30,518 bases of DNA, taken from Bdellovibrionota bacterium. GTDB taxonomy: Bacteria > Bdellovibrionota_C > UBA2361 > JBGSMV01. The notes beneath the pieces are model-generated. The model searched no databases and was not told where the DNA came from. It worked only from the letters and a program-made list of their open reading frames with translations. The first letter of the stretch is position 1. Each line of letters starts with the position of its first letter. The stretch is taken from assembly GCA_044356455.1 (NCBI GenBank), contig JBIKWF010000046.1, positions 1 through 30,518 of the forward strand, read 5' to 3'. This document shows, one piece after another, positions 6,906 to 23,900 of the stretch. The translations under genes and the position numbers were made by a program.

Positions 6906-9900
6906 ATGGCAAAGCATCATCAGAGGGAAAACCAGACTATTCGCGCAGCTGGAATTGATTCGATCAGAGCCGCCTTACATCAATTAGGCGGAGATGCGAA
7001 CTTTCAGGCTGGGAATGCAGATCAGGCCGTCAGGGCGACATTAGGGGCCCGCGAGAGTGTCTTCGAAAAAGGATGTGACCTTCTTACCCTTGCTTACCTG
7101 TGCGAGGGGAAAGCCCCAATTTTAGATGACGACCCCGCTCTGACTCAAGCGGCAATCGCGATTCTAACTGCAAGAATGCCAGACCAGGTTGAAATCCTCA
7201 GACACGAACTTGCGAAGCCGACCGAAGACCGGGCCCCGCTCGAGCGTCACGGAGCCAAACAAGCACCTGAACTTGCGCCGGTGGGTCTTAAAGCGGCGCT
7301 TCAGGCGATACTGCCGAACGAGCTCGAAACCTCGATTCGCGAAGAAGCGAGTAACGCGGCAAGAGCGGCCATCGAATCGGTCCGTTCCGAACTCGCCAAT
7401 AAGCCTCGGGACGATAATTCAGCAGAGCCCGCCCTTGCTCCTCGCCGTCCCTTAACACTCGATCAGTGGGGACAAAAGAACGAAAACTGGTCCGCGGGAA
7501 GTTGCAGTAGGCCCTACGAATATTTCCGCTGTAATTTTGACGGCAAAATTAGCGGTACAGAGTTACCATTCAGTACCGTAGGAGTGCTGTCAGCTCGTGT
7601 AACTCTGGATGGAGGCCTCACAACCATTCCGGTCGAAGATTATCTCTCTGCCCTTATGAAACGTACGCCGGACATCGCTTCGCTGCGAGACAAGCTTTTT
7701 CAGACCACCGCTCTTCCGGGGTTCAACTCGATTCCCGCGGGGGCTACGCAGATCGCATTCAGCGTCACCGCCGATTCAACTCGAAGGCTTCCTCTTCCCT
7801 TCGGATATCAGATCATCGGAATTAGGTTTCGCGATCAGAACGGCGGTGAAATTTCTGGGGGCTCAGTCGTTCAGAGTTGCCTTGGGGGCGCACACGTTGA
7901 AGTCCCGCCCTCTGTCTGCGCGATTCAATATCTTATTCGTCCTGCATCCGAGCAAGAGGCTTCGCGCAACCTGGAGCTTATCAAAGAACTCTGGACGGTA
8001 CTACCACGCCCCCCCGCACCTCTTACGAGAGAAAGTTTGACGCGCGACGCGATAATTAATCGCCTCTTTCGCACTCCTGAATCCAAAATCGAGGAAGCGC
8101 TAAAAGCGCTTTCGCGCGATAGCATCCCGCTTGGGTACTCGACGTTGCCCGTCGTGGCGAAATTGCACGAGCTCTATTCGAAAGACAGTGCAGGCTTCAT
8201 TCGCGGCTACCGCGTAGGCTCATGTCTTCACTTTAGTCTTCTTGCAATCGATTGTGCCCGTCGCTTCGGCGAGACCGGAATAGTTCTGGGCGGCCTGAAT
8301 GTAAGCGGAGACCAATTTCAAATTGACATAGGACATGCCGTCGCTCTTATCCCCAAAATGAAAGGATGGGGGCCCTTCGCACCAACCGATCTTACTTCAC
8401 TTGCTCGCTGGCCCAGGTATGAGTGGGAGCCGAAGACTCCAATGCGGGGAGTCAACATTGATGCCGGCGCAGAGCGAGCAGGACGCGAGCTGCGTGATTA
8501 CTGCGAGCCAGATTTTATTAGCCATGATTGGGAACACGAACACCCCATCACGCGGCAATCAGTCACTTTGTATATCGAAAACGCGCTCGCCTTTCAGGCC
8601 GCTTTAGAATCTGAGATGCCCTATCCACAACTAAATCGCTTTCTTCGTGAAGCCATTTTTACGAGTGGAGGGAACGCGGAGGTTTCATGCCAGGAATTCT
8701 ATAAGCTTCGGGATATCCCGCTTGGTGATGCTGTCATTGAGCGGCTTCTGCTAGAAACACCCTCGGTGGCCAACGTAGCCGCCGTTGCTAAGTTAATAGT
8801 TGATGCCGCGAAAACAGTTACGGAGCAAAAAGAGGAAATCTCAGGCCGCAATTTCCCCTTCTCCCTTAAGGCACTGACGACACTGTGCGCGCTTCCTGAG
8901 TTCTCCAAAATTGAAGAGACTCTTAGCGCTCCCGCGTTGCGCGTCCTGCTTGCCTTAAGAGGAACGAGCTTCGAGCAAAACAACGCTTCCTTCAGCACCA
9001 TCATTGCTCAGAATTCAGGATCGCTCCTCAAAGCGACCTCAAGCGATGATGCGTTAGCTTCAGAACTCGCGACCGGTTTAGTGAATTGTCTCGCACGCGG
9101 GCAACTAGACAGCGGGGAGGAACGAGCGATTATTGAGTGTTTGAAAGCTCTTGCGGAACAAGCTCCCGAGAAAATCGGAGGAGGCATCGCTCAGATAGTC
9201 TTTGAGTCGACCACATTGAGCGAAGGAGTTGCGTCAGAGTTCCGAAAACTCCTCGGTCACTCTAAAGTGAAATCTGGATTTATTACCAAGCTATCCGCCC
9301 AACTGAGGGACGATTTACCGACTGGGCAGACTCTGGAAACGCTCTTGCCCGAGGCTTTTTCCCTAGAACCTGCCGCAACAGAGATGACGCTTCAACTCTG
9401 CCAACATTACCATCGGAGGGTTCGCAAAAGTGCGGTAGCCTTCGGTCCTGAGATTGAGGGGAACCCTGCCCATATGCTTGCGCTCGCACATATGGGGAGA
9501 ACGGGTGCGGAGCTACTTTCTACTTTAAGAATCCTGTGCAAACACGGCGGCATAGACGCTGAGGCACTCAAGCGCACCTGGCCATCCCTTGCCGATTCCG
9601 ACGTTGCCGCCACAATTGTTGCAAAACTCGAAAAGTCAGAAAGCGATAGCCTGTATCATAATTTTCTGGACTCAGCCGGAGTTGCCATTTCTATTTCTGG
9701 CTTGGGAGCCTCCGGCGTAGAATGGAACACCACAGCCCTTGAAGAATTGTTTGGCCCACAGCACCCCTTGAGCGATTTGAGTCGTCACGTCGCGGCAGAA
9801 ATCCGCCCATGGTCAATCACGAACATCGATAGCCAGATTTGGCAGGATTTTGCTTCCGCATACCCGGGGGAGTGGCAAAAGTATCTAAACTTTGTGCGCG

Positions 9901-10871
9901 ACTCAGCGCCAGGGAACGAATTAGAAACTCGAGTCGCCACGGCTCTCATACTCACGCAGAAGTCCTACAAGCAATTGCTTGTGGCGGGCCGAGAGAGTGG
10001 AAGCGCACCGGGCACGAAGAATGGAGAAGTCACGAGGGCATTTGCAAGAGTTACTCAGCATTATCAACAGAGCTTACCACTCGCTAAGGCAACTTCTATA
10101 CCTGAACGACTTTTAGGACCACTGATTGCAGATTCCCGAGAGCCGCGCTCACGTTATGCTGCGCCGGGCATTTTTAAGCCCCAGGCGACCGATTCAACCA
10201 TCAATGCGAAGCGCTGGATGTTGCATACCCAGAATTGCATGCGAGGGCAGACCGAAAGCGCGCGCGCTCAGCTCGCGGCAATCCCTAACGGTGTCGACTT
10301 CCGGAGTCATCGAAGTTACTCCCCTGGTGACGACGTTCGACACATAGATTGGAACAAATTTGCGAGCCTCGATGAGTTAGTTTTCAAGGAAACGGAAAAT
10401 CACAAATTTAGCAATCCCGTCATCCTGTTAGATGCCCTGTGGCTAGCACATGGATTACGAGCATTCATCGAGCCCGCGAAATCAGCACATACCACCGCCG
10501 ACTTGTTCGGGAATTTCCTGCGTTCGGTATCCCGAGCAACCGGACGAGGAGCGCACGCTATCAAAGTATACGTGGTTAATTCGACCGACGGCGTCATCAC
10601 CTCCTTTGTTGCGCGCTCCGCCAAGGAAATCCCCACAAGGCTTATTCCCGTTGTCGCTGCTCTTGAAGCAGTAGCTGATGCCGAACGTAATGCGAGTCTC
10701 CATCGAGAGATTGATTTTAAAAACCTTGACCTCGTCGCGACAAATGGCATCCGGCTCCTTCCCAATGAGGAGCTATTCGTCGCGTCACTCCCCGCATGGC
10801 AATCAGCAACGATGCGAATCCACAATCCTAAGTTGCGATTCGCTATCCCCTCTTTCTCCAATCGCGGTTAA
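6906..10871 (+). CDS. Large protein (1321 aa) with central transglutaminase-like domain and C-terminal DUF58-like domain
   Basis: DUF58 signature DFRSHRSYSPGDDVRHIDWNKFA near the C-terminus. GSCLHFSLLAIDCARRFG...GHAVALI...PTD resembles the transglutaminase-like Cys-His-Asp core. Confidence 0.75.
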   Translation: MAKHHQRENQTIRAAGIDSIRAALHQLGGDANFQAGNADQAVRATLGARESVFEKGCDLLTLAYLCEGKAPILDDDPALTQAAIAILTARMPDQVEILRHELAKPTEDRAPLERHGAKQAPELAPVGLKAALQAILPNELETSIREEASNAARAAIESVRSELANKPRDDNSAEPALAPRRPLTLDQWGQKNENWSAGSCSRPYEYFRCNFDGKISGTELPFSTVGVLSARVTLDGGLTTIPVEDYLSALMKRTPDIASLRDKLFQTTALPGFNSIPAGATQIAFSVTADSTRRLPLPFGYQIIGIRFRDQNGGEISGGSVVQSCLGGAHVEVPPSVCAIQYLIRPASEQEASRNLELIKELWTVLPRPPAPLTRESLTRDAIINRLFRTPESKIEEALKALSRDSIPLGYSTLPVVAKLHELYSKDSAGFIRGYRVGSCLHFSLLAIDCARRFGETGIVLGGLNVSGDQFQIDIGHAVALIPKMKGWGPFAPTDLTSLARWPRYEWEPKTPMRGVNIDAGAERAGRELRDYCEPDFISHDWEHEHPITRQSVTLYIENALAFQAALESEMPYPQLNRFLREAIFTSGGNAEVSCQEFYKLRDIPLGDAVIERLLLETPSVANVAAVAKLIVDAAKTVTEQKEEISGRNFPFSLKALTTLCALPEFSKIEETLSAPALRVLLALRGTSFEQNNASFSTIIAQNSGSLLKATSSDDALASELATGLVNCLARGQLDSGEERAIIECLKALAEQAPEKIGGGIAQIVFESTTLSEGVASEFRKLLGHSKVKSGFITKLSAQLRDDLPTGQTLETLLPEAFSLEPAATEMTLQLCQHYHRRVRKSAVAFGPEIEGNPAHMLALAHMGRTGAELLSTLRILCKHGGIDAEALKRTWPSLADSDVAATIVAKLEKSESDSLYHNFLDSAGVAISISGLGASGVEWNTTALEELFGPQHPLSDLSRHVAAEIRPWSITNIDSQIWQDFASAYPGEWQKYLNFVRDSAPGNELETRVATALILTQKSYKQLLVAGRESGSAPGTKNGEVTRAFARVTQHYQQSLPLAKATSIPERLLGPLIADSREPRSRYAAPGIFKPQATDSTINAKRWMLHTQNCMRGQTESARAQLAAIPNGVDFRSHRSYSPGDDVRHIDWNKFASLDELVFKETENHKFSNPVILLDALWLAHGLRAFIEPAKSAHTTADLFGNFLRSVSRATGRGAHAIKVYVVNSTDGVITSFVARSAKEIPTRLIPVVAALEAVADAERNASLHREIDFKNLDLVATNGIRLLPNEELFVASLPAWQSATMRIHNPKLRFAIPSFSNRG

Positions 10872-10958: not shown

Positions 10959-11906
10959 TCAGTCGTCGAGCTTGAGCACCTGCCGAAACACCGCTCCCGC
11001 CACTTGGTAACGATCGTATTGCTCAGACCGAAGTTGCATCAGCTCGTCAGAATTGGCGCACGAGAGAGCCTCGCTCAAAGCTTTCTCTGCTGCCCGCGCA
11101 CTGGGAGAGTGTGGGTCGGCCAGAGCTCTGAGAGGGGCTATGCCAGCCATTTTTAGTCGAAGACTTGCCAACGCGACTTCGAGCCAGGAGGGAACGCTGA
11201 AGTTGAAGTGCACCGAGAATGATTCTTCGCTTGCCTCGGTGGCGTGCCAAACACCTCTTGGCACAAACATAAAATCCCCCGGCTTAAGCTCGACCGGCTT
11301 CGCTTTTGCATAATAGTCGGTAGGCGGAGTGTTATTCCAATAGGTAGAAAGCTCCTCTGGTACATACGGAAGCTCGGAGAGCGAGTAGTGTTCGAGGGGA
11401 TACTCTGCCGTTTCATTCTGAAGTAGAAACCATTTCTTCCTGCCGCGAAGTTGCAGCACGAAATTTAGGTAGGCATCAAAGTGTGGTGAAACGCCGCTTC
11501 CTTTGGCAGATAGATATCCGATCGCTTTGCCAAACGTTCCGGAGGGGACTGTGAGCTCAGAGGTGAGTGTCTCTAAAACCTCGCGCACCCCGGGCACGAA
11601 CATGTCAAGGCAGTCGAATTCAAGCGTAGCGCCCTCGCGGTAGAGCTCGAGGGCGCGTTTGGGTAGCACCGAAACCCGATCTGCGAGGCCCTCTGTTTCG
11701 CGGATGGCAATCGTTCCTAACACCATGATTGGCGAGCGGTACTTCGCGACAAGCGCGGAGACGCTTTGTAAATCGTTGTTTTCGGGCAGTGGAGAGAAGC
11801 GTTCGACTGGACCATGGGTGATGAGGGGCTCCCTCTCCCAATGCTTGTCGCGGAAGGCTTGCACACTAAGATTTCCCAGTAGCTTTTCTAAAACTGTGCG
11901 CGACAT
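10959..11906 (-). CDS. JmjC/cupin Fe(II)/2-oxoglutarate oxygenase (YcfD/ROX-like)
   Basis: HFD...NFVLQLRGRKKW (HxD) and LKPGDFMFVPRGVWH (distal His); FRDKHWEREPL N-terminus. ATG at 11906 with AGGGAG RBS. Confidence 0.9.
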   Translation of the reverse strand: MSRTVLEKLLGNLSVQAFRDKHWEREPLITHGPVERFSPLPENNDLQSVSALVAKYRSPIMVLGTIAIRETEGLADRVSVLPKRALELYREGATLEFDCLDMFVPGVREVLETLTSELTVPSGTFGKAIGYLSAKGSGVSPHFDAYLNFVLQLRGRKKWFLLQNETAEYPLEHYSLSELPYVPEELSTYWNNTPPTDYYAKAKPVELKPGDFMFVPRGVWHATEASEESFSVHFNFSVPSWLEVALASLRLKMAGIAPLRALADPHSPSARAAEKALSEALSCANSDELMQLRSEQYDRYQVAGAVFRQVLKLDD

Positions 11907-11920
11907 AGCGTGCTCCCTAA

Positions 11921-13891
11921 TCAAACAAAAGTAGTGATTTCTGATTCAGTTTCGGTATGCAGATTCTTATCGAGGGAAGAATTCGAAAAAGAGCCAAGGG
12001 TAAAAGCATCCGGCTCACTCTTCTCCGATGCAATGAGGCAATCACGCGCGAAGTCCATAGAGGGGGGCCTCCCCCACTCTCTCAAGCGCGAACTCTGGTC
12101 GAGATTGCCCATGTTCACCAGGCGTATCAGGGCAAAGCTTGAGGCAGGGTCAGAGTCAATCCCCGCCATCAGAGAATTGAGAGACTCCAAATTGACGAAG
12201 TCCCGACCACTCGAGCCAATTGGAAATGCGCGCTCAAGGAGTGCATGCGAATCCATGCGAAGTAGATTCGCCATCATGCGTTCGGTGTAGCGCAGACCTG
12301 GTCCGTAAAAGAAAGGCACCTTTTCACGCGACGTTACTGCGCTTGGCAAGAGAGTTCCCATCGCTGCGCGAAGGATCCGCTTATCCCAGAAGAGTCGAGG
12401 CCGGAGGCTTGGGGGAACACCGAGGCAGAGCTCCACGAGGCGATGATCAAGAAACGGCGTTCGGCCCTCTATGCCAAAGTGGCTGGTCAGGCGATCCTCG
12501 TGCCAGAGATTGAAAACTTCCAAGTCATGCAGCTTGCTCAACTGATAAAACTGCCAAGCGTCCAGCGGCATCGGGCCATGGTCCCGGGGGGAGAGCTCCC
12601 TAATGAGACCTGGAAACTGCTCCCAGGGCGCGAAAGCGCCACCAGCCGCACGGTGCCGGGTGTTCTCGGCGATTGATTCCAGTCCGAGTAGAGCTCCTTC
12701 CCAAGAGTCGTCAAATATCGAGGCGAGCAAGCGGGTATATCCACCATTACATTCATCACTTCCCTGTCCGCTCAGCATTACCCGCAGCGAGGGACGCGCT
12801 GCTTTAGCAGACCGAAGGAGCATGTATTTGAATAGTTGCTCGGGGCCGCAGCTTGGGTTCTCCGTCAGGTGCAGGAGGGCCAGCCATAACTGCGGGTTAA
12901 TCAGCGGGTCAGAGGCGTCGATCCGAACTTGATAGTTCTTTACACCAACTGCGCGTGCAACGTCGCGAGCTCCAACTGCGTCACCGTTAAGCGCAGTGCT
13001 CTGGGTAAGTACGGTGAATGAATCGAAAGAATGCCCACGGCCGCGCCCGATTGCAGCAATTGATGCGGAATCAATACCGCCACTCAGCATCAGCGCGGGC
13101 TCCGAAGAGCTCTCGAACGCCTCGTCGCACGCCGAGCTGAGAATCTCGCGATAGTGCTCGATCCAGGCCTCCTCCTCCGTTTCCTCGGCTGACCGAGGCT
13201 CAGGAATCGCCCAATAGCGTCCAAACGAGAGACTTGTCCCACGCGCGCTTGCCTGAACGTAGCCACCGGGCTGCACGCTCTCGATGCCGCAAAAAAACGA
13301 ACCAGCGGGGCGTGCACTAAAAACTAAGTCCTCGCTAAACCAAGGTTCAGCGAGCGCCGATTCCCAGTCGAATTTCGCCGGGCACCGAGGGCACATCAAG
13401 AGTGCCTTCAGTTCGGAGGCAAAAAAGAGGCTCTCTCCGTCGTAGTGATAAAAAAGCGGCTTGATGCCAAATCGGTCGCGCGCGAGGGTCAGCACGCCTC
13501 TACGCCGGTCCCAAATCGCGCAAGAAAACATCCCTCGCAAGTCAGCAAACGCTTGAGCCCCCTTGTCTTCGAACAGATGCAAAAGCACCTCAGCATCCGA
13601 AGTTCCCTTGAACACATGCGCGCACAGTTCGCGGCGAAGCTCGCGGTGATTATAAATTTCTCCGTTGACTATTGCTACGAGTGCACCATCCTCACTGATC
13701 AAAGGTTGCTGGCCATTGGCGCCGCCTACGATAGACAAACGCTGAAACGCCAGCGAGATTGACTCATCACTGAAATGACTACCAGTGTCAGGCCCGCGGT
13801 GTTGCAGGTGCTGGGCCATTCGCTCGGTTAGCGCATCCCGCTCAGCCCGGACCAGTGCGCCTTTGGTAAAAATGCCCGCTAGTCCGCACAC
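11921..13891 (-). CDS. asnB: Asparagine synthetase B-like glutamine amidotransferase
   Basis: GTG start at 13891 gives MCGLAG (N-terminal nucleophile Cys). Motifs HRGPD, RLSI, NGEIYN, RDRFGIKPLFY, LSGGIDS, SGQGSDE..GGY and RTPFLD. Confidence 0.92.
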   Translation of the reverse strand: MCGLAGIFTKGALVRAERDALTERMAQHLQHRGPDTGSHFSDESISLAFQRLSIVGGANGQQPLISEDGALVAIVNGEIYNHRELRRELCAHVFKGTSDAEVLLHLFEDKGAQAFADLRGMFSCAIWDRRRGVLTLARDRFGIKPLFYHYDGESLFFASELKALLMCPRCPAKFDWESALAEPWFSEDLVFSARPAGSFFCGIESVQPGGYVQASARGTSLSFGRYWAIPEPRSAEETEEEAWIEHYREILSSACDEAFESSSEPALMLSGGIDSASIAAIGRGRGHSFDSFTVLTQSTALNGDAVGARDVARAVGVKNYQVRIDASDPLINPQLWLALLHLTENPSCGPEQLFKYMLLRSAKAARPSLRVMLSGQGSDECNGGYTRLLASIFDDSWEGALLGLESIAENTRHRAAGGAFAPWEQFPGLIRELSPRDHGPMPLDAWQFYQLSKLHDLEVFNLWHEDRLTSHFGIEGRTPFLDHRLVELCLGVPPSLRPRLFWDKRILRAAMGTLLPSAVTSREKVPFFYGPGLRYTERMMANLLRMDSHALLERAFPIGSSGRDFVNLESLNSLMAGIDSDPASSFALIRLVNMGNLDQSSRLREWGRPPSMDFARDCLIASEKSEPDAFTLGSFSNSSLDKNLHTETESEITTFV

Positions 13892-14622
13892 GGAATTTGC
13901 TCCCCGGTTGAGTCCTGTAGCTCCTTGCGCCAGTATGCAATCCATAGCGATTCAACACTTTGTTCTCCGCTCACGAGCGGCAGATCTGTCGGAAGGGAGT
14001 CCAGGCAGTTCACGAGGTCCTCTTCAGCAAAGCTAAATGGCTCTACCGTCATATTGGATAGCCCAGCAGCAGCGGCGTACTCGCGAACGGATTCCATGGA
14101 AAGACTCTCCTCCAGAGCCTCTTTGACGAACCTAAAAAGATGCGGCTCGGTGATGGATTTCGCGAGAAGCTCGCTCATTCTCGAAGCGACGCTCGCGATG
14201 GTATCAAGGAGAATAAGAGTGCCTCCTACTTTCAGAACTCTCCTGCATTCCCGAAGCGCTCGAACGGGATTCTCCCAATGGTGGAAGCAGGAGTACGACA
14301 CGACCAGGTCAAAGGTGCAGTCGGCAAAGGGCAGCGCATGCACGTCAGCCTCGCGCAAACTCCAGCGGCTTTCGGGAACCGAGGACAAGCGCGCGCGACT
14401 AAGTTCCAGCATGGTCTCGTTTATATCCACGCCGCAAATTTTTGCATCGGTGCGGGTAGCAAGCTCGAAGCTTAGATAGCCAGGGCCTGTCCCCAGATCA
14501 AGGATGTTCGATGCGGCCCCCACGTAGGTACGAGAGAGAAAGCTAGCAAGCAGCGCGTACAAGTAGCGCTGATGCCGCTCGACAAACTCCTCGTAGTGGA
14601 AGCAGTCGATTCTGCTTAGCAT
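13879..14622 (-). CDS. Class I SAM-dependent methyltransferase
   Basis: ILDLGTGPG (motif I), GVDIN, ADVHALPFADCTFDLVVS, RVLKVGG. Confidence 0.92.
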   Translation of the reverse strand: MLSRIDCFHYEEFVERHQRYLYALLASFLSRTYVGAASNILDLGTGPGYLSFELATRTDAKICGVDINETMLELSRARLSSVPESRWSLREADVHALPFADCTFDLVVSYSCFHHWENPVRALRECRRVLKVGGTLILLDTIASVASRMSELLAKSITEPHLFRFVKEALEESLSMESVREYAAAAGLSNMTVEPFSFAEEDLVNCLDSLPTDLPLVSGEQSVESLWIAYWRKELQDSTGEQIPCAD

Positions 14623-15104
14623 GGCTTAGCCCCCAAAGAATACTCGAGCTCCAGCTCGTCGCGGAGCGGGATGCCGTAATCGCCACTGCTTGGTATCCCA
14701 GGCTTAAGCAGACGCGATTGCTCAAGAGCATTCCGGTGAAGTGCGCGCAAGGTAAACCCTCGGCGCTGATAAAAACGCAGAGCGTCAACATTGTCGTTAG
14801 TGGTGACAAGCCACACGCGATTGCAGCGCTGACGTTGGGCGATCTCCACTAAGGACGCAAGCAATGCCGTGCCCACACCCTGGTGACGTGAATTGGCATT
14901 GAGGCTCACCACTTCGCACTCGCCATTTGCAATGTGGTAAGTCAGTAAGCCGACAAGGTTCGAATCTGTCTCGGCTACCAGAGCGGGGAGCTCGAGCGCA
15001 TTATGCACAACGCCACGTGACACAATCTGGGGCGTTCCCCAGGATTCCTCAAGGATAGAAGTTGCCGTGGCGCGGTCTCTTTGCTCTATCGGTCTAATAT
15101 TCAT
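14616..15104 (-). CDS. GNAT-family N-acetyltransferase
   Basis: RHQGVGTALL acetyl-CoA motif; TTNDNVDALRFYQRRGF. Confidence 0.92.
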   Translation of the reverse strand: MNIRPIEQRDRATATSILEESWGTPQIVSRGVVHNALELPALVAETDSNLVGLLTYHIANGECEVVSLNANSRHQGVGTALLASLVEIAQRQRCNRVWLVTTNDNVDALRFYQRRGFTLRALHRNALEQSRLLKPGIPSSGDYGIPLRDELELEYSLGAKPC

Positions 15105-15109
15105 AGGCG

Positions 15110-15892
15110 TTATCCTCTTAGTCTTCGTATCAGTGTCCCCCCATCGGGCGTAAGTTCAGCCCCTGTTAGCATCGCAGAGTCATCACTGAGAAAGAAGGCG
15201 ACGCAACGGGCAACATCGAGGGCGGTGGGGACTCGCCCTAAAGGCAAAGAGCCATACATTTCATCACGCACAAGGTCAGGCGAGGCGCCGAGCTGCTCTG
15301 CAAACTTTTCGATTACGACCTCGCCTAAGCGGGTGTTAAGAGTTCCCGGGTTTACGGTATTAACGCGAACCCCCCGGTCGGCAAGCTCGTCGGCGAGCGT
15401 GCGCGAAAGACTTCTTAGACCTGCGTTGGCGACGCCGGCGATGCCAAGTAACGCGGTTGGATCGACGCCTGCTGCCCCCGCAATATTCACTATTGAGCCT
15501 CCGTCGCGCGTGAGATGAGGCAAGACGCACTGAATTAGACTCAGCGTGCTGACCAGCTTTAGATGCAGATAAGACGCGAACTCCTCCAGGTCAGCGCTGT
15601 GCAGGTGCCCAACGCAAGCTTCGCCGGCGTTATTGACGAGGCCATAAATCGGGCCGAAGCGGCTCACTGATTGCGTAACGAAGTTGTTCCGGTCCTCGGC
15701 GCGTGTGATGTCCGCTCTTCTCGCGTGAAGAGAGTCGCTCTGAAGTCCCTCGCGCAGCACTCGGATGTCGCCCTCGGTGCGCGCGCATGTCGAAACCCTT
15801 GCGCCTTGGCTTAGCAGGAGTTCCACGGTCTGCCGACCGACCCCATGAGTTCCACCAGAAACAAGAATATGTGGGCTGTGTGGTATTGGCAT
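15110..15892 (-). CDS. Short-chain dehydrogenase/reductase-fold protein lacking the canonical YxxxK
   Basis: SGGTHGVG, VNNAG, GSIVNI, GVRVNTVNPG and PLGR motifs. AGVANAGL occupies the YxxxK position. ATG at 15892 lies 4 nt after the radical SAM stop. Confidence 0.88.
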   Translation of the reverse strand: MPIPHSPHILVSGGTHGVGRQTVELLLSQGARVSTCARTEGDIRVLREGLQSDSLHARRADITRAEDRNNFVTQSVSRFGPIYGLVNNAGEACVGHLHSADLEEFASYLHLKLVSTLSLIQCVLPHLTRDGGSIVNIAGAAGVDPTALLGIAGVANAGLRSLSRTLADELADRGVRVNTVNPGTLNTRLGEVVIEKFAEQLGASPDLVRDEMYGSLPLGRVPTALDVARCVAFFLSDDSAMLTGAELTPDGGTLIRRLRG

Positions 15893-15896
15893 AGAA

Positions 15897-17072
15897 CTAG
15901 AAGCACTTAGTGTGTGATTGAAGGTTTTCTCCGTAACAGACTTTGAGAAACTCAATAAGCGGGTCTAGCTCCCCGGCCTCAAAGTCCGCGGTCATTTCTC
16001 TATACACTCGTTTCAGATCCTCGCAGTGTCCTACAGGGCCATAGAGGTCTCCGGTATAGAATAGCGCCTGCGAGCGACACCCGCCCTTGCAGATGCCGCG
16101 ATACTCACAAGTTGAGCAGACCGTGAGCTTATCGGGCGTGAAAGAGAGGTGACGGGATTCCCTTTGGCGGCGCAGATAGGTCGCTTCGAAGTCTTCAGTG
16201 AAGACATTCCCAAGTCGAAATTCTGGAATTGAAGTGATAGCCCCACAGTAGTACGCCTCGCCCTTCGCATCGATCTCCCAAGTACGCCCCGACATAGGAG
16301 TGCAATAGGTGGAACATGGATTGCCCAGGCCAGAGAGAGAAATGACCATGCTCTCAATTAAATCGATGCTCATTTCCTCAAAGCGGGTTTTCTCGAAGCG
16401 ATAGAGCTGCGAGAGCACATCCTCGACACCCGCGCGAGTAAGGTCCTGGGTAACACCCGTCCGCTGTCCATAACTCGTCGACACGTGAGTAGTTTGAACC
16501 CCATGAGCGATTCCCCACTCAAGGACGTCCACTACCTTATTGTCGACCACGTTTGTAATCGGAACCGAGAGCGCAACTTTAACCCCGCTTTCCACCATGT
16601 TGTCGATGTTTCCCATGATGCGTGGTAGAAGAGGCAGCCCCCTCACCTTAGCATACGCAACCTCGTCGACCGTATCCATGCTTACCTGGACCGTAACATC
16701 GAGGCTTGCGAGTAGTTTCACGAGTTGGGGAGTACACCCCGTTCCGTTCGTTACCAAGTAGGTCTCGAAGCCGTAGTCCTCCACAGATGCCTTAAGAATC
16801 TCGGGCAGCTCTTTAACTATGGTGGGCTCCCCGCCGCTCACCAACATGACGCGAGTACCTGCGCGTTTAGCCATCTCGAAGATATGAATTATCTGGTCCA
16901 TAGAGAGCCGGTCGTGACTGCCCCGTGTGGCATTCATATAGCAGTAGGAGCAAGTCTGGTTGCAACGGGACGTAATTTGCAGCCACACAGATTTTGGGCC
17001 GCCAGAGCCAGTGAAAAGCCGCTCGTGGGATCTTCCGGCACGGCCGATTGAGACAATTTCAGCGCACGTCAT
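15897..17072 (-). CDS. Radical SAM enzyme with SPASM domain (peptide maturase type)
   Basis: CNQTCSYC (CxxxCxxC), SGGEP, VTNGT, VSMD; C-terminal C...YYC...LGNV...CSTCEYRGICKGGC...C SPASM cysteines. Confidence 0.93.
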   Translation of the reverse strand: MTCAEIVSIGRAGRSHERLFTGSGGPKSVWLQITSRCNQTCSYCYMNATRGSHDRLSMDQIIHIFEMAKRAGTRVMLVSGGEPTIVKELPEILKASVEDYGFETYLVTNGTGCTPQLVKLLASLDVTVQVSMDTVDEVAYAKVRGLPLLPRIMGNIDNMVESGVKVALSVPITNVVDNKVVDVLEWGIAHGVQTTHVSTSYGQRTGVTQDLTRAGVEDVLSQLYRFEKTRFEEMSIDLIESMVISLSGLGNPCSTYCTPMSGRTWEIDAKGEAYYCGAITSIPEFRLGNVFTEDFEATYLRRQRESRHLSFTPDKLTVCSTCEYRGICKGGCRSQALFYTGDLYGPVGHCEDLKRVYREMTADFEAGELDPLIEFLKVCYGENLQSHTKCF

Positions 17073-17091
17073 GTGAATTCCTCTCTGACTG

Positions 17092-17553
17092 TTAAGGCTG
17101 TAACAACGAAATCTGCGCCCGCTCGATGCCCTCTACATGCTCAATGCGCGCCATGAAGCCGCAGGCGCGCGCATGGGCCTCCGCCAAGGCTTTGGCGTAA
17201 GCAGCGAACTCTTCTAGGCTGATATCGAAATAAAAGAATACCTCCGGTAACTCTTCTGAAAACCACATCTTAGACTCAACGACCGCGGTTTCGCCGTGCC
17301 ACTTAACAGAAATTTCGTCGTAGATGAGCCCGCGGCCGCGCACGAACTCTTCAACAAACTGGATAAGCGGCTCAGCGTTGTCGGCAGCCCGTTCAGAGTA
17401 GTAGCCATGGCCTTCGAGCAGCTCGATCTGCCAATCCGCTAGGTCGTGGAGGCCCGAGTCGAGTGCTCGATTCCGCGCGATGACTACCGCCAGATGCCCG
17501 AGCATCCCGAGAGCCTGGTCCCTACTCCAGTGGGTGGTCCGTTGCTCGCTCAT
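17092..17553 (-). CDS. Hypothetical protein (153 aa) within the RiPP operon
   Basis: Start overlaps the RRE stop (TAATG); ends 19 nt before the radical SAM start; no family recognised. Confidence 0.85.
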   Translation of the reverse strand: MSEQRTTHWSRDQALGMLGHLAVVIARNRALDSGLHDLADWQIELLEGHGYYSERAADNAEPLIQFVEEFVRGRGLIYDEISVKWHGETAVVESKMWFSEELPEVFFYFDISLEEFAAYAKALAEAHARACGFMARIEHVEGIERAQISLLQP

Positions 17554-17828
17554 TAGTGTTGCTCAACGCGGGTAATGATGCGCTCTTTCTCCAGCTCGCG
17601 CGCAAGTTCCAGGCAGTCAGCGAGGCATGCCTCAGGAGTGGTGTCATAACTCGCGGCAACCTTTGCCGCGCCAGCGCGCACCGTGGTTTTCCCGTCGAGG
17701 GTTTGAAAAAAACTCGCCGCAGATTCATTCAACGCGAGTCCGGGCTCGATAACGATACCTTTTAGGTACTGGCGAAAAGGTCGCTCTGGATTGTGTTGGA
17801 AGATGAGCTCGGCTTCGTCTTGCGTCAT
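17553..17828 (-). CDS. Stand-alone PqqD-family RiPP recognition element (RRE), 91 aa
   Basis: ATG at 17828 with AAGGAG RBS. LNESAASFFQTLDGKTTV...AASYD...LADCLELARELEKERII fits the PqqD pattern. Confidence 0.88.
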   Translation of the reverse strand: MTQDEAELIFQHNPERPFRQYLKGIVIEPGLALNESAASFFQTLDGKTTVRAGAAKVAASYDTTPEACLADCLELARELEKERIITRVEQH

Positions 17829-17840
17829 GGGAAACTCCTT

Positions 17841-17875
17841 AAATAAAAGCCCCAAAGGCAAAATGCCCAAGGGGC
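17841..17875 (-). terminator. Hairpin plus U-rich tract between precursor and RRE (leaky terminator or mRNA stabiliser)
   Basis: Minus strand GCCCCTTGGGCA-TTT-TGCCTTTGGGGC followed by TTTTATTT. Confidence 0.6.
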
Positions 17876-17890
17876 AAACCTATTTAAAAC

Positions 17891-17959
17891 TTAATGTCCA
17901 CCAGCCGCGTATACGCGACGGAGACGATACAACTTAGGCTTCATGTATTTCGCTTTCAT
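17891..17959 (-). CDS. Putative RiPP precursor peptide MKAKYMKPKLYRLRRVYAAGGH (22 aa)
   Basis: Translated by hand: AAGGAGGAACC-ATG AAA GCG AAA TAC ATG AAG CCT AAG TTG ... GGT GGA CAT TAA. Contains a YxxPxL motif and is the first ORF of the RRE/radical SAM operon. Confidence 0.88.
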   Translation of the reverse strand: MKAKYMKPKLYRLRRVYAAGGH

Positions 17960-18001: not shown

Positions 18002-18280
18002 AAAGGCGCAATCGCCAAAACTGCTCGACTGCCCGAGAAATCCAAGCATATCGATTTGGTTGCAGCCAACGCAGAAAGACCGAAGAGGATTCAGAATTGG
18101 TGGCGAGGAGTCTGTCTCCTAGAAAATTCTTAACACTAGATGCTGTGGTGGCAGCGGGACAGCCTACCTACGGATTGTGACCAAAATAAAGATCCTCTTT
18201 CTACGGAACACACTCCTAGTTGAATTGTCTTCGGAATCCTTTGCTGGCGATGGCAAGAGAGAAAGTGCCATAGCTTTGCC

Positions 18281-19009
18281 ATGATTTCCCGAGATAAAAA
18301 GCCCGAGCGTGAAACCCGGCGATGCGCAGAGCCGAATGCGTGGATGTCAGAGTTGTCGCTTGGCCACAACTGCGATTCATGCGATTTCCTTTTGAATCAA
18401 CGACAGAGTAAGCCGAATCGGATTCGGCGCTCGGCAGCTGATGAGCTGCACGCTCCCCAGATGGAAGGTGACGACGACCGATTTGAAAAGCGCGAACAAG
18501 AAAGAGCCCGCGACAAAATGCAGCACCGCGAGGGCCGCAATCAGGGATTTCGTTGCGTGAACTCAGCCTGCCGGTCGTGGGTGCCGCTTCATGATCTGAT
18601 GGGCACTAAGAACCGTAATCACTGCCCGTGCTGTCTTGCCTCAAAGCATGTTGACGAGAAAACCGGGGATCGGAGCGCGGAGTGTGGCTCGCGAATGGAC
18701 GCAATCGCTTTAACGACAAAAAAAGAAAGACAGAACCGATATGCTGAGGAACACGAAAGTCGCGGAGAGCTCATGTTGGTGCATGAGTGTTCCGGTTGCG
18801 GATTCCATCGCATAAACCGCATTGCTGCCGACGATAACGATTATGTGATTCTTAGAGTCTTTGAGCAGTCCTTGAGAATGCCCGAATTACAGCGCTTGCG
18901 CCTTCTAGAGAAAGGGATCGCGTTACTCGGACCGGGCGATTTGGACCTTGTTCGATCACAGTTTGTTGTAGATGAAGGAAAGCCATGGAACCAAAACGAG
19001 AAGACATAA
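18281..19009 (+). CDS. RNHCP domain-containing protein (start uncertain, may be downstream)
   Basis: FRCVNSAC...RNHCPCCLASKHVD...GDR...CG.RM...LVHECSGCG...NRIAADDN. Confidence 0.88.
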   Translation: MISRDKKPERETRRCAEPNAWMSELSLGHNCDSCDFLLNQRQSKPNRIRRSAADELHAPQMEGDDDRFEKREQERARDKMQHREGRNQGFRCVNSACRSWVPLHDLMGTKNRNHCPCCLASKHVDEKTGDRSAECGSRMDAIALTTKKERQNRYAEEHESRGELMLVHECSGCGFHRINRIAADDNDYVILRVFEQSLRMPELQRLRLLEKGIALLGPGDLDLVRSQFVVDEGKPWNQNEKT

Positions 19010-20406
19010 AGTGCCGCGCCGACTATTCGGCGCTGCAACTCGGCGCAGGGGAAAGCCGCGAGAGGTACCCGGAGCTTACCCTAAGTGCTGCGCCCCCAGT
19101 ATTGGATTTGCGAATCGCTGCGGCAGGGGCGCAGGGTTGGCAGCGCGTGCTTGACGAAGAGAAACTGCCGACCGAGGCACTTCCCGCCCCTGACGCCGCT
19201 CGCATCATTATTGCTCCGCTGACTGCGGAGACGTTGGAAAGCGCTCAGAGCGACTTGAAGAATGCTTGGGTTCTCGAGGCGCGCAGCGCCGTGGGTACGC
19301 TCGAGGCACAAGGCTTTCATCTGCCGCCTGTGACCTCCCGAGACAACTTGCCCGTCTCCAGATTTGGCCGGGCAGTTATCATCCAAGCAAACTGCTCGGA
19401 ACAACTGCTTCGCGCTAATAATGAGACCGTCAATGAAGCTCTCGATACCATGCGGCAAGCACTTCGTGTCGCGCATGAGGTACTCGAGGTTCCCTACATC
19501 CATCTATGGTACTACCCCAAAGCTGCCCCCACCGGTTTTCTTTTCCGAGTTGATGTGGACTACGTGGTCCCCGAAGCGCTAGAGAAGTTCGCTGAATTGA
19601 GTGAGCGATTTGGAATTAAGGGTACCTATTTTGTTAATGTGAGTGGAGAAGAAGAGTACGAGGACACCATTGGTCAAGGGATGCTTGAGCGTCCGACAAC
19701 TCCGGATCGCCTCACTCAGTTAAGGGCTATTCAAGCGAGGGGAAATGAAATCGCCAATCACGGCTACTGGCACAACGTGTTTCCCGATGCTGGTGAAAAC
19801 ACGTCTAACATTGATAGAGCGCAGCGAGCTCTATTCGAGTGCTTCGGCCTGCAGTGTGTCGGCTTTGCCGCGCCCGGCGCGGAGAGCACCGACACGCTCG
19901 GCGCCGCGTTAAGCGACTTCGGGTTTAGGTATGTTGCGAATACCTTGGCTGATAACGGAGCGTTCCCCTATAAGCCCTCGAACAATTCAACTTTCTACGA
20001 AATGCCAGGATGCTCGCTCAGCGACCTTGGACTGGAGGGCGTGGGGCTCGAGACCGATCGCCAGACTGTCGTCGCCGATGTGGTGGAGTTTTATAGGTCG
20101 TTGATCGCCGCGCATATTGAGTCGGGGCTCCCCGTATCGCTCATCGTCCATCCGCATTTAGCGGGACATTGCGCCGAAGCGCTTCTGGCCCCCATCTTCG
20201 AGCTCATCGCGGAGCATGGCATTCCGTCATTTACTCATTCTGAGTTTGAGAGCTGGTGGCGACGCAGGGCCGAGGCGAAGTTTGAGGTGGTTTCCTCTTC
20301 CGCCGGAGAGCGCGCACTGCACTGTGAAGTCAGCGATGCCGTAGTAGAGGTACTCTTCAAGGGCGAAAGGCGGCTAATAAAACTTCGGAACGATGTGTCC
20401 TTTTAG
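18985..20406 (+). CDS. Polysaccharide deacetylase (NodB/CE4-like) family protein
   Basis: FRVDVD, GTYFV, EIANHGYWH, GFAAPG and HPH motifs. Confidence 0.8.
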   Translation: MEPKREDIKCRADYSALQLGAGESRERYPELTLSAAPPVLDLRIAAAGAQGWQRVLDEEKLPTEALPAPDAARIIIAPLTAETLESAQSDLKNAWVLEARSAVGTLEAQGFHLPPVTSRDNLPVSRFGRAVIIQANCSEQLLRANNETVNEALDTMRQALRVAHEVLEVPYIHLWYYPKAAPTGFLFRVDVDYVVPEALEKFAELSERFGIKGTYFVNVSGEEEYEDTIGQGMLERPTTPDRLTQLRAIQARGNEIANHGYWHNVFPDAGENTSNIDRAQRALFECFGLQCVGFAAPGAESTDTLGAALSDFGFRYVANTLADNGAFPYKPSNNSTFYEMPGCSLSDLGLEGVGLETDRQTVVADVVEFYRSLIAAHIESGLPVSLIVHPHLAGHCAEALLAPIFELIAEHGIPSFTHSEFESWWRRRAEAKFEVVSSSAGERALHCEVSDAVVEVLFKGERRLIKLRNDVSF

Positions 20407-20943: not shown

Positions 20944-23900
20944 ATGTACGTCTTTGACACCTGGGGAAAATGCATGCAAACAAAAATACTACTGACACTC
21001 TTGCTTGGCTCTGCTTTTTTCTCCGGCATTGACAGCCATGCAGCACCGCAAGTCCTGGGGGAAAAGGGCTATCCTACCCCATCATTTGACCCTCTTAAGC
21101 TCAGTGAGCCGCTACCGCCTCAGCAACGAAGATATTTCATTGAATGCAACAATCGCCAGCAGTACCGCGGTGGTCTTGACGGCGCGGTGCAGGTAGCAGT
21201 CACGCTTCAAGCGACTGGATCAAAAGTTCAAATTCGCAGGCCATTCCGCGGAACACTTTTTTGCGGGGCTTCGGTGCTTGGTTCGATAGAACCAACCAGT
21301 CGCCAAGAACTCGAAAATCTTGGCTTTTCCGTCACAGAGGTGAAGAGAATCCGTGCACTCCTTGAGGAGTCTGTTCCGATCCTCGGCATTTCTGAAATAG
21401 TAGATACAGAACTAGGAAACAACAGACCCGCAACTGGCCACGGCATCAGCATCGGGGTAGTCGATTCAGGTACCGACTATAGCCATCCGTCATTGGGTTC
21501 TTGTACACAATCTGAGTTTCTCTCTGGTCGCTGCAGCACGGTGCGTGGTGGATACGATTTTGTAAACAATGACCGGGATCCCATGGACGATAACGGGCAT
21601 GGGACTCATGTGGCAGCGATAGCTGCGGGACGTGGGCCACGTGGGCAAGGAGTTGCTACAGGGGCAGAGCTATATTCACTGAAGGTTCTTGGGGCCGCGG
21701 GTTATGGTTTCGAGGATGACATCATCGCCGCACTTGAATGGGCTCTCGATCCGAATGGCGATGGAGATGCTAGTGATCATATTGATATTGTCAATTTAAG
21801 TCTTGGAAGCTCCGGCTATCCAGGAGCGGAAGGTGGTCCCCTTCCTCGAGCCGCGAACCGACTTTCAGAGTTGGGAGTTCTTGTGGTTGCCGCAGCCGGG
21901 AACGCTGGCGGTAACCAAAACAACAGCACGGTGGGCTGCCCCGCATGCGCCTCGCAAGTGCTTGCTGTTGCCGCTTCGAACAAGGAAAAACTCATCCAAA
22001 ATACTGATATAGCCAACTTTAGCTCCTGGGGTCCTTTCGAATCCTCTCAGGGATTTGTCGGAAAACCGGAACTTACTGCACCTGGTGCTAGAATTTGTGC
22101 CGCTCGGGCGAACGGTACCTCTTCTGACTACCCTGCCTGCCGAGACGACCTTGGACGAATTGCGCTATCGGGCACTTCAATGGCTAGCCCTCATGTCGCA
22201 GGAGCTGCGGCAATTCTCATGGAACTATTCCCTCGCTATACGACCAAGGAAATTCGACAACAGTTAATGAATCTTGCTCGACCGCTTCCCCGCACCTCAG
22301 CGAATCAATCAGGACTCGGAGTCATTGGCCTTGCTGGCCTTAGCACAACGTCGAAAGCGCCTCCGACTATCGACCTCGAAGCAATTTCTCTAGCTACAAG
22401 TGAGGGGCGAGCGACTCTCCGGGCAATCGTGCATGCTCGCCATGGCGTCAAACGAATCGACTTGGCAGCGGCTCCAAGCAGCGCAGGCGATCTGATGAGA
22501 GCAATAGTTTTTCGGGAAATTGAAGTCCCAGGAGCGCCCCGCACCTATTCTCTTGAGGAGCAGCTCGCGCTTCCTCAAGCTTTCGAGTCACCTCAAACTA
22601 TCCTAGTTTCCGTTACTGATCTCGAAGGCACAACAAGCAGAGCCTGGACACAACTTCGTACGGTCAGTGGCAAATTTGTAGTCCCGGAATTATTTGAAAC
22701 TATCGCTGCGAATACTCCTTACGAAGTTATCTTGGGCAATAATGGTCCGCCTATTCCAACTACTTTCTCATTGCGAAACCCGCTGACTGAGCGGACTACC
22801 GGCACCCTCAATCCCATGACTCTGCTAAAAACATCGATTTATGAATTGATTGCACGCCAAACTATGGGTCAGTATTCACGGGTAGTCTCAACTTTTGTGG
22901 AGAGTGATGAGAACCTGCGCTTCGGCTCGCCAATTCAGGCACTCACGCAACCGCAACTAGTAGTTGGAAAATCTGCATTTACGGTAACAGAGTCTAACGC
23001 CCGGTCTGAACCAAACTCTTTGATTACCATAGCCGCTAGATGCGATGAGTACCCATACATGTGCTCACTCGAACTCTCGTCATTACGCCCTTCTGGACAA
23101 GTTAATTGGTCAACAGAAATCGGTGGCACACCAAACGACATTCTTCCGCCACCTATTGAATTCAAAGACTCTTCTCGGAATATTATCTTTACTCTGTCGG
23201 AGTGCAGTGAATACTTCGGTTGTCGCCTGATAGGAGTAGATCGAGCGACAGGACAGTATGTTCCCGGCTGGTCTGGCTCCAGTAGGTTAGGTCTCGATGT
23301 AACTGCGAAGCCCACAATTCATCTAGTGCCGAACGGCAACGGCAGCGACTTTCAGATGGTTGTGTTCGCCCGCTATTTGATAGGATCCTTCTACGGCGAA
23401 ACACCATATCGTGTATCGGTTTTCAACTCATCAGGGCAGCTCGTCAGGCAGTGGTCTCCCGAGGGTGATACCGACCCCTTATTTGAGATAGGTAACACAA
23501 TCGCTACACCAGCCTTTGGTAACTTCGACCAAGACTCGGACATGGAAATAGCATTTCTCATTGCGGCACCAGGATATGTCCCAGGCCGGGATGAAAGAAG
23601 TTCACTTCAAGTGTATAATCTTGATGGTACCAGATTGAGTGGTTGGCCGCGGCAAATTTCAGGCACTTATATTTCGTCAAACGTAATCGCAGCGGATTTA
23701 AACCGCGATGGTCGAGACGAAATAATTGCTCAGACAGGTTGCGGGGCGAACCGCAGCGCCGATTGCGAGTCTGTGTTCGCCTTCATGGGCGACTCAAGCA
23801 TTCTACCAGGTTGGCCTTCACGTATACAGGTCGAAGGGCGTCGAGCTAATTTCTCTGAATTACGTTCACTCGCCGCAGCAGACGTAGACCAAGACGGCTC

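What the first reader, a model, noticed from the sequence alone, without database searches (positions are those of the whole stretch)
10959..17959. Candidate novel RiPP gene cluster: precursor, RRE, unknown protein, rSAM/SPASM, SDR, GNAT, methyltransferase, AsnB amidotransferase, JmjC oxygenase
Seen: nine co-oriented genes, with the eight downstream of the precursor overlapping or separated by at most 19 nt, headed by a tiny ORF with a strong RBS. Known: a stand-alone PqqD/RRE plus a SPASM radical SAM enzyme is the hallmark of peptide-modifying pathways (PQQ, mycofactocin, ranthipeptides and others). AsnB-like enzymes amidate peptide carboxylates in some RiPPs, and JmjC/ROX oxygenases hydroxylate peptidyl His or Arg. 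Inference: six or seven tailoring proteins act on a core of at most 12 residues, suggesting a densely modified small molecule (crosslinked, hydroxylated, methylated, amidated, possibly acetylated or reduced). I do not recognise this enzyme combination as a described RiPP class, but I cannot confirm novelty without a search.
Basis: partly seen in the sequence, partly recalled or inferred. Interest (0 to 1): 0.93.

Follow-up and report, generated by a model that had tools for sequence, protein, structure and literature searches.

The report
Histidine-tipped peptide pathway, Bacillus asnH-like
These genes look like an undescribed pathway that turns the histidine end of a tiny peptide into a small molecule, and the same core genes and peptide sit in the long-unexplained asnH operon of Bacillus subtilis, so the idea can be tested in a laboratory bacterium.

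Summary
The nine-gene operon is real and very likely a RiPP cluster, but the radical SAM enzyme is not its core. In 9 of 9 related loci fetched (5 enterobacterial plasmids, 3 Bacillales genomes, 1 Streptomycetaceae genome) a 21-22-aa YxxP...GGH precursor lies beside RRE, methyltransferase, JmjC, the unknown protein, AsnB and an MFS (GNAT in 8). None has the rSAM, and none has an SDR inside the cluster. One of these loci is the B. subtilis yxbD-yxbC/yxbB-yxbA-yxnB-asnH-yxaM locus. Its 5' 118-nt triplication is three copies of the precursor ORF, differing only at synonymous sites. Best reading, chemistry all inferred: the C-terminal His is amidated (AsnB), hydroxylated (JmjC) and methylated, then released as a small His-derived metabolite, with the GNAT as self-protection. 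The window is a variant that adds an rSAM and an SDR, lacks the MFS, and has the only Tyr17 precursor. Equal contig lengths tie the rSAM family to these genes on four other contigs, whose DNA I could not see. Ten searches of open-access papers found no description of the locus as a RiPP.

The parts
17891..17959 (-). Precursor peptide, 22 aa: YxKP leader motif, Arg14, C-terminal GGH; Tyr17 is unique to this copy
17836..17890 (-). Hairpin between precursor and RRE (predicted -23 kcal/mol for these 55 nt); likely sets precursor-to-enzyme mRNA ratio (inference)
17553..17828 (-). Stand-alone PqqD/RRE, 91 aa (YxbA position)
   Evidence: PF05402 E 4e-10
17092..17553 (-). Unknown protein, 153 aa (YxnB position); weak V4R/TRAPP-Bet3/H-NOX-like fold; Arg74 and Glu144 invariant; fused to the GNAT in some relatives
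15897..17072 (-). Radical SAM/SPASM enzyme, 391 aa, accessory; no N-terminal RRE; seven invariant auxiliary cysteines
15110..15892 (-). SDR oxidoreductase, 260 aa, accessory; no YxxxK at the usual catalytic position
14616..15104 (-). GNAT acetyltransferase, 162 aa (YxbD position)
13879..14622 (-). Class I SAM methyltransferase, 247 aa (YxbB position)
11921..13891 (-). Glutamine-dependent asparagine-synthetase-like enzyme, 656 aa (AsnH ortholog) without the C-terminal extension of Bacillales and Streptomycetaceae orthologs
10959..11906 (-). JmjC Fe/2OG oxygenase, 315 aa, ortholog of B. subtilis YxbC
   Evidence: (PDB 7zcc, 1vrb; E 1e-73)

Best explanation
A RiPP-type pathway uses a 21-22-residue peptide as a handle to modify its C-terminal histidine. 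Shown by comparison: the peptide, RRE, methyltransferase, JmjC, unknown protein and AsnB travel together across at least three phyla. Inferred steps: (1) the RRE binds the YxxP leader; (2) AsnB adenylates the His22 carboxylate and amidates it with glutamine-derived ammonia; (3) JmjC hydroxylates His22, most likely at C-beta; (4) the methyltransferase N-methylates the imidazole or the new amide; (5) the leader is removed, by housekeeping peptidases or by the unknown protein, to give a modified His-amide or (Gly)1-2-His-amide; (6) the GNAT acetylates the freed amine as self-protection, and an MFS exports the product where one is present. The window's rSAM and SDR add further tailoring, possibly at Tyr17. 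About 0.93 that this is a RiPP pathway on this peptide; about 0.55 for the His-centred scheme as a whole; lower for any single regiochemistry.
For: G, G, H, the leader Tyr and Pro and one Arg are invariant in 10 of 10 distinct precursors (17 copies, 10 loci). Tandem copies number 2, 3 and 5 in three Bacillales genomes, each with its own RBS-like purine run; the three in G1182 differ at five positions, all synonymous. AsnB keeps Cys2, the SGGxDS loop and Glu380/Tyr385, the spacing of the carboxylate-activating Glu363/Tyr368 of PesC. JmjC keeps H142, D144, H221 and K157; its next solved relatives after YxbC are the histidyl hydroxylase NO66 (E 3e-9). Precedent: in fosfazinomycin an AS-like enzyme and a methyltransferase act on the C-terminus of a 22-mer YxxP peptide, with no dedicated protease (PMC13622209). 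The unknown domain is fused to this same GNAT subfamily in 9 of 40 homologs scanned. The GNAT is missing from the G883 locus, so it is not needed there as a clustered gene.
Against: No enzyme activity, product or expression is shown. The NO66 similarity is distant, and a JmjC structurally like YxbC hydroxylates a Phe ring in curacozole (PMC11575548). AS-like enzymes also make nitriles, hydrazides and lactams. The window has no MFS, and three family MFS queries found none in its 93%-complete genome. The five plasmid loci are close kin, not independent. B. subtilis asnH is reported to complement an E. coli asparagine auxotroph (recalled, no call).
Confidence: 0.55

Rival explanations
1. Same substrate, different C-terminal chemistry: AsnB goes on to a nitrile, closes a ring, or attaches another nucleophile, and JmjC desaturates or otherwise oxidises His or Gly, giving a reactive warhead.
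For: PesC makes a nitrile only after a neighbouring hydroxylation (PMC13060819); FzmA attaches hydrazine. This subfamily has its own invariant pocket motifs (E344-x-P346, E351-Q352, N461, E465-D466-R467).
Against: Cys2 and the glutaminase domain are intact; no genes for hydrazine or hydroxylamine supply were recognised in any locus.
Confidence: 0.2
2. The released product is a modified Gly-Gly-His, an ATCUN-type Cu/Ni binder acting as a metallophore or metal-dependent toxin; the GNAT blocks it by acetylating the coordinating amine.
For: Exactly G-G-H is invariant while positions -4 to -8 vary. ATCUN binding uses the terminal amine, two amide nitrogens and His (PMC7701195 passage).
Against: Gly-Gly may only be a spacer. 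The reported control of the B. subtilis operon is growth phase, CodY and YlxR. No metal-uptake genes were recognised in the loci. Imidazole methylation could weaken binding.
Confidence: 0.13
3. One reading: the rSAM installs a class-defining crosslink in a core of up to 12 residues and the other enzymes decorate it.
For: Intact SPASM enzyme, closest folds SuiB, anSME, ChlB and CteB-type maturases. The window's precursor alone has an aromatic residue at position 17. The rSAM family co-occurs with cluster genes on four other contigs.
Against: No rSAM in 9 of 9 related loci or as an ortholog in 4 of 4 genomes searched. Tyr17 rests on one sequence. A crosslink remains plausible as an add-on in this variant (about 0.35), not as the defining step.
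Confidence: 0.09
4. Not a RiPP: an asparagine-synthetase operon whose 5' repeats are an RNA-stabilising element or regulatory leader ORF.
For: The title of Morinaga et al. 2010 assigns the triplication a role in RNA stabilisation (seen only as a reference); AsnB passes the TIGR01536 cut-off (337 vs 267 bits).
Against: An RRE in 9 of 9 loci, synonymous-only differences between repeat copies, and peptide-level conservation across genomes of very different G+C. RNA stabilisation and coding are compatible.
Confidence: 0.03

Closest known systems
Bacillus subtilis yxbD-yxbC / yxbB-yxbA-yxnB-asnH-yxaM locus (function unknown)
   Same: Orthologs of GNAT (40%), JmjC (37%), methyltransferase (44%), RRE (37%), unknown protein (33%) and AsnB (41%), and a precursor identical at 13 of 22 positions.
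   Different: B. subtilis has three precursor copies, an MFS, divergent yxbCD and a 747-aa AsnH with a C-terminal extension; the window has one copy, a single operon, no MFS, and an added rSAM and SDR.
Fosfazinomycin pathway (FzmZ, FzmA, FzmH, FzmT; PMC13622209)
   Same: Works alike: 21/22-mer YxxP scaffold peptide, AS-like enzyme on the C-terminal carboxylate, methyltransferase, stand-alone RRE, no dedicated protease.
   Different: FzmZ ends in VR and receives hydrazine and a phosphonate through kinases and a nucleotidyltransferase; none of these was recognised here. Here the end is GGH with JmjC, GNAT and the unknown protein.
Nitrilobacillins (PesC; PMC13060819)
   Same: AS-like enzyme acting on a peptide C-terminus together with iron-dependent beta-hydroxylation.
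   Different: pes uses an MNIO and a HExxH enzyme, M16 peptidases and an R(V/T)DN terminus.
Lasso peptides
   Same: YxxP leader, stand-alone RRE, asparagine-synthetase-fold enzyme.
   Different: No acidic residue in the window's precursor, no B2 peptidase hit, and an intact glutaminase domain.
RRE-dependent rSAM/SPASM RiPPs (PqqE, MftC, PapB, SuiB, DynA)
   Same: SPASM rSAM plus separate PqqD.
   Different: All 25 listed NCBIfam models score 58-79 bits against cut-offs of 180-650; the rSAM is dispensable in the family.

Membership tests
RiPP (general) | Genetically encoded short precursor conserved beside the enzymes | tested here: met
   9 of 9 related loci
RiPP (general) | Leader-binding RRE | tested here: met
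   PF05402 above cut-off; RRE in 9 of 9 loci
RiPP (general) | Enzymes modify the peptide | not testable with these tools
   needs LC-MS/MS
B. subtilis asnH/yxb locus family | Orthologs of YxbB, YxbA, YxnB, AsnH, YxbC, YxbD and the GGH peptide | tested here: met
   33-44% identity, E 1e-15 to 1e-145; gene order from PMC9319509 and PMC10714963 passages
B. subtilis asnH/yxb locus family | Clustered MFS exporter (YxaM), present in 9 of 9 related loci | tested here: not met
   none in the cluster; not found in G000 with three family queries; genome 93% complete
Lasso peptide | Asp/Glu acceptor in the core | tested here: not met
   the precursor has no Asp or Glu; rule recalled
Lasso peptide | Lasso cyclase and B2 peptidase | tested here: not met
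   NF033535 182 bits vs cut-off 525; no peptidase Pfam hit in the eight enzymes
Sactipeptide / ranthipeptide | Cys donor in the precursor | tested here: not met
   no Cys in 10 of 10 distinct precursors
PQQ / mycofactocin | PqqE or MftC maturase above cut-off; Glu/Tyr or C-terminal Tyr core | tested here: not met
   75.5 vs 381 and 74.9 vs 265 bits; core motifs recalled
Triceptide-like cyclophane | Aromatic-X-X motif crosslinked by a SPASM enzyme | tested here: inconclusive
   Tyr17-Ala-Ala in one precursor; no model above cut-off among the 25 shown of 65
Fosfazinomycin-type scaffold peptide | 21/22-mer YxxP precursor with AS-like enzyme and stand-alone RRE | tested here: met
Fosfazinomycin-type scaffold peptide | RRE fused to the C-terminus of the AS-like enzyme | tested here: inconclusive
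   absent in the window and enterobacterial enzymes; 4 of 7 orthologs carry a roughly 90-aa extension that looks RRE-like by eye but has no PqqD Pfam hit
Fosfazinomycin-type scaffold peptide | C-terminal VR, phosphonate and hydrazine genes | tested here: not met
   ends in GGH; no such Pfam hit in 20 window proteins
Nitrilobacillin | MNIO and R(V/T)DN terminus | tested here: not met

The most novel reading that the evidence does not exclude
This is an undescribed RiPP class that builds a histidine-derived warhead by new chemistry (for example a hydroxylated, methylated His amide or nitrile), in which the YxnB-type protein is a peptide-processing enzyme on a V4R-like fold. B. subtilis makes such a compound from its asnH locus, whose 5' triplication is three precursor genes, and the window's lineage makes a second, Tyr-crosslinked form with a new rSAM subfamily.
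Probability: 0.3. Interest if true: 0.93.

Novelty: new variant of a known kind. Interest (0 to 1): 0.85.

Why it matters
It names a candidate substrate for a set of B. subtilis genes that the papers read here still call unknown (yxbB, yxnB, yxbC-D), including a JmjC enzyme with two deposited structures, and it reinterprets the 5' sequence triplication of the asnH operon as tandem precursor genes. The test is short and can be done in a laboratory strain. The pathway also occurs on plasmids of Rahnella and Cronobacter and in Streptomycetaceae, so the product may matter in microbial competition. The window adds an uncharacterised rSAM subfamily and shows how an rSAM/SDR module can be added to a small-molecule RiPP.

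Tried and rejected
The rSAM was not found in 100 relatives of the host, in viral contigs or as an ortholog on plasmids. The unknown-protein profile matched 1 of 401 Streptomycetaceae, 0 of 401 genomes of a Myxococcota locus's phylum and 0 of 5, 5, 11 and 4 in small sets. JmjC matched 1 of 401 Bacillales, 2 of 49 Bacillus, 0 of 5 and 1 of 5. No locus with both an rSAM and a visible precursor was obtained. No match in E. coli genomes. Five viral hits to a precursor DNA pattern were chance. No Rfam match; promoter-like sites were no more than chance. No RNA holder listed. Fold searches for the unknown protein gave no Foldseek hit at E 0.001 and a best natural VIA Z of 6.9: inconclusive. The SDR 4 kb from the G1182 locus is 27% identical, like ordinary paralogs, and was not counted as a cluster gene. 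The JmjC tree puts the other rSAM-linked JmjC (P0103) away from the window's clade, but on a long branch, so no order of gain or loss is claimed. Three look-ups of earlier scan findings returned nothing.
Full report
Observation. Pfam gives PqqD, radical SAM, SDR, GNAT, class I methyltransferase, glutaminase plus Asn synthase, and JmjC; the 153-aa protein has no hit. The precursor reads MKAKYMKPKLYRLRRVYAAGGH behind an AGGAGG site and is followed by a hairpin. The cluster's G+C (0.554) is close to the genome's (0.525). Contigs of four lake metagenomes match it with few differences and no conflicting joint.

Finding relatives. The rSAM has 22 homologs besides itself, 12 at 61-84% and 10 at 27-37% identity, but scans built on it were swamped by generic rSAMs. 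The unknown protein was the useful handle: 48 hits among 50%-identity representatives, with named members in Halobacillus, Anoxybacillus, Alicyclobacillus, Paenibacillus, Streptomyces and Sorangium. One homolog led to five plasmids of Rahnella and Cronobacter. Genome searches gave G146 (Streptomycetaceae), G883 (Bacillales), G1182 and G1188 (Bacillus). The family is rare: about 1 in 400 genomes in two samples and 0 of 401 in a third.

What is conserved. All 9 related loci carry a 21-22-aa precursor ending GGH, an RRE, a methyltransferase, JmjC, the unknown protein, AsnB and an MFS (8 by annotation or Pfam, the G146 one read by eye); 8 carry the GNAT. In L163 the methyltransferase and JmjC are annotated in pieces. 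None has the rSAM, and the rSAM profile finds only partial, generic matches in the four whole genomes (best 104 bits; family members, which are in the model, score 438 or more). Over 17 copies and 10 distinct peptides the invariant residues are the leader Tyr and Pro, one Arg and the final G-G-H; positions 15-19 vary. The five plasmids are close kin, so the independent count is nearer five lineages plus the window.

The B. subtilis link. The window's JmjC matches PDB chains of B. subtilis YxbC at E 1e-73, far ahead of NO66 at 3e-9. The JmjC of G1182 reads the same as that chain over the aligned stretch (compared by eye), and the genes around it follow the published order: GNAT and JmjC on one strand, then methyltransferase, RRE, 160-aa unknown, 747-aa AsnB and MFS on the other (PMC9319509 and PMC10714963, passages). 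Between the two arms lie three copies spaced 118 nt apart, each encoding MKKAYKKPRLFELRRAVAAGGH behind a purine-rich site; the five differing positions are all synonymous. Morinaga et al. [quoted passage not shown] That the triplication is these three ORFs is an inference from position and copy number. G883 has two copies and G1188 five. The passages read call yxbB unstudied, yxbC-D unknown and yxnB unique and unknown, and report induction at entry to stationary phase and control by CodY and YlxR.

Mechanism, all inferred. YxxP is a characterised RRE-binding motif (PMC12710340, passages). AsnB keeps the glutaminase Cys2, the pyrophosphate loop and a Glu...Tyr pair spaced like the one PesC needs for carboxylate activation (PMC13060819, first part, section 10 and passages), so Gln-dependent amidation of His22 is the simplest step; nitrile or other outcomes remain open. 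JmjC keeps its iron triad, and hydroxylation of His22 fits both the NO66 relationship and the peptide's conservation, though a YxbC-like fold hydroxylates Phe in curacozole (PMC11575548, passage). The closest worked-out logic is fosfazinomycin: a 22-mer YxxP peptide, an AS-like enzyme and a methyltransferase at the C-terminus, release by general peptidases (PMC13622209, parts 1-3 of 6 and passages). No peptidase was recognised in any of the clusters. The unknown protein folds confidently (pLDDT 93) and resembles, weakly, V4R-type proteins: ATC hydrolase family (TM 0.64, under the tool's naming bar), TRAPP Bet3, BcsD and H-NOX (Z 5.7-6.9). Arg74 and Glu144 are invariant in 40 of 40 sequences. 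It is fused to the same GNAT subfamily in 9 of 40 homologs scanned (of 48 found) and in G1188. That suits either a releasing hydrolase that hands a free amine to the acetyltransferase or a product-binding immunity protein; I could not separate the two.

The window's variant. The rSAM has the CX3CX2C motif and seven auxiliary cysteines in 23 of 23 sequences, with two more cysteines in the 13 close ones; its nearest folds are SuiB, anSME and ChlB at 16-19% identity and no listed NCBIfam model passes its cut-off. It belongs with this family: equal longest-contig lengths pair it with the unknown protein (4,231 nt), with the unknown protein and JmjC (13,897 nt), with an unknown-GNAT fusion and JmjC (8,900 nt), and in Streptomyces sp. 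NPDC017435 with the unknown protein three accessions away. These are coincidences of record data; I saw none of that DNA. The window's peptide is the only one with an aromatic residue at 17, which makes a Tyr-based crosslink a testable lead resting on one sequence. The SDR lacks YxxxK at the usual place. The window has no MFS.

Against this reading. Nothing shows activity, product or expression. The His-hydroxylase link is distant. asnH is reported to complement an asparagine auxotroph (recalled), and the triplication has a published RNA-stabilising role (title only). The missing exporter is unexplained.

Novelty. Ten searches of the open-access library found no paper that treats this locus or a GGH-ending precursor as a RiPP; most hits were seen only as listings. 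Subscription journals, MIBiG and all supplements were not seen, and the AS-like network file of PMC13060819, with about 300 uncharacterised RiPP-linked candidates, may already hold this family. I rate it a new variant of a known kind: RiPP logic like fosfazinomycin's scaffold peptide, not a member of any class tested. Interest 0.85, mainly because it makes the function of a model-organism operon directly testable.

Noticed in passing
window 18134-18193: A short stretch upstream of the cluster has 8- to 20-fold higher summed contig depth in all four metagenomes, with several contigs matching only this piece and diverging on both sides. No Rfam match. Perhaps a conserved coding remnant or repeat; unexplained.
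   Followed up: partly
window 18281-20406 (+): Overlapping RNHCP-domain gene and polysaccharide-deacetylase gene, divergent from the cluster.
   Followed up: no
window 20944-24438 (+): 1,164-aa S8 subtilase with FG-GAP repeats, 3 kb from the precursor; not tested as a maturation protease.
   Followed up: no
window 6906-10871 (+): 1,321-aa protein with only a weak DUF58 match, convergent with JmjC.
   Followed up: no
L163 6829-18656: In this Cronobacter sakazakii plasmid the cluster lies between two IS26 copies; methyltransferase and JmjC are annotated in pieces and the GNAT is short, while precursor, RRE and AsnB are whole.
   Followed up: partly
L162, L164, L192, L193: The enterobacterial clusters sit among toxin-antitoxin and defence-like genes (DUF4263, PemK/MazF, VapBC, nucleotidyltransferase with S-4TM effector).
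   Followed up: no
L168 10059-10300: G146 holds a second, partial copy of the unknown-protein gene with no other cluster gene within 20 kb.
   Followed up: partly
L180 7680-9504: Transposase-like remnants lie right after JmjC in G883, where G1182 has the GNAT; the GNAT may have been lost there.
   Followed up: partly
L189 10424-10906: The YxnB-position protein; YxnB was recovered among RNA-binding candidates in a sporulation study (10.1101/2025.03.21.644579, passage). Not explained by the pathway model.
   Followed up: no
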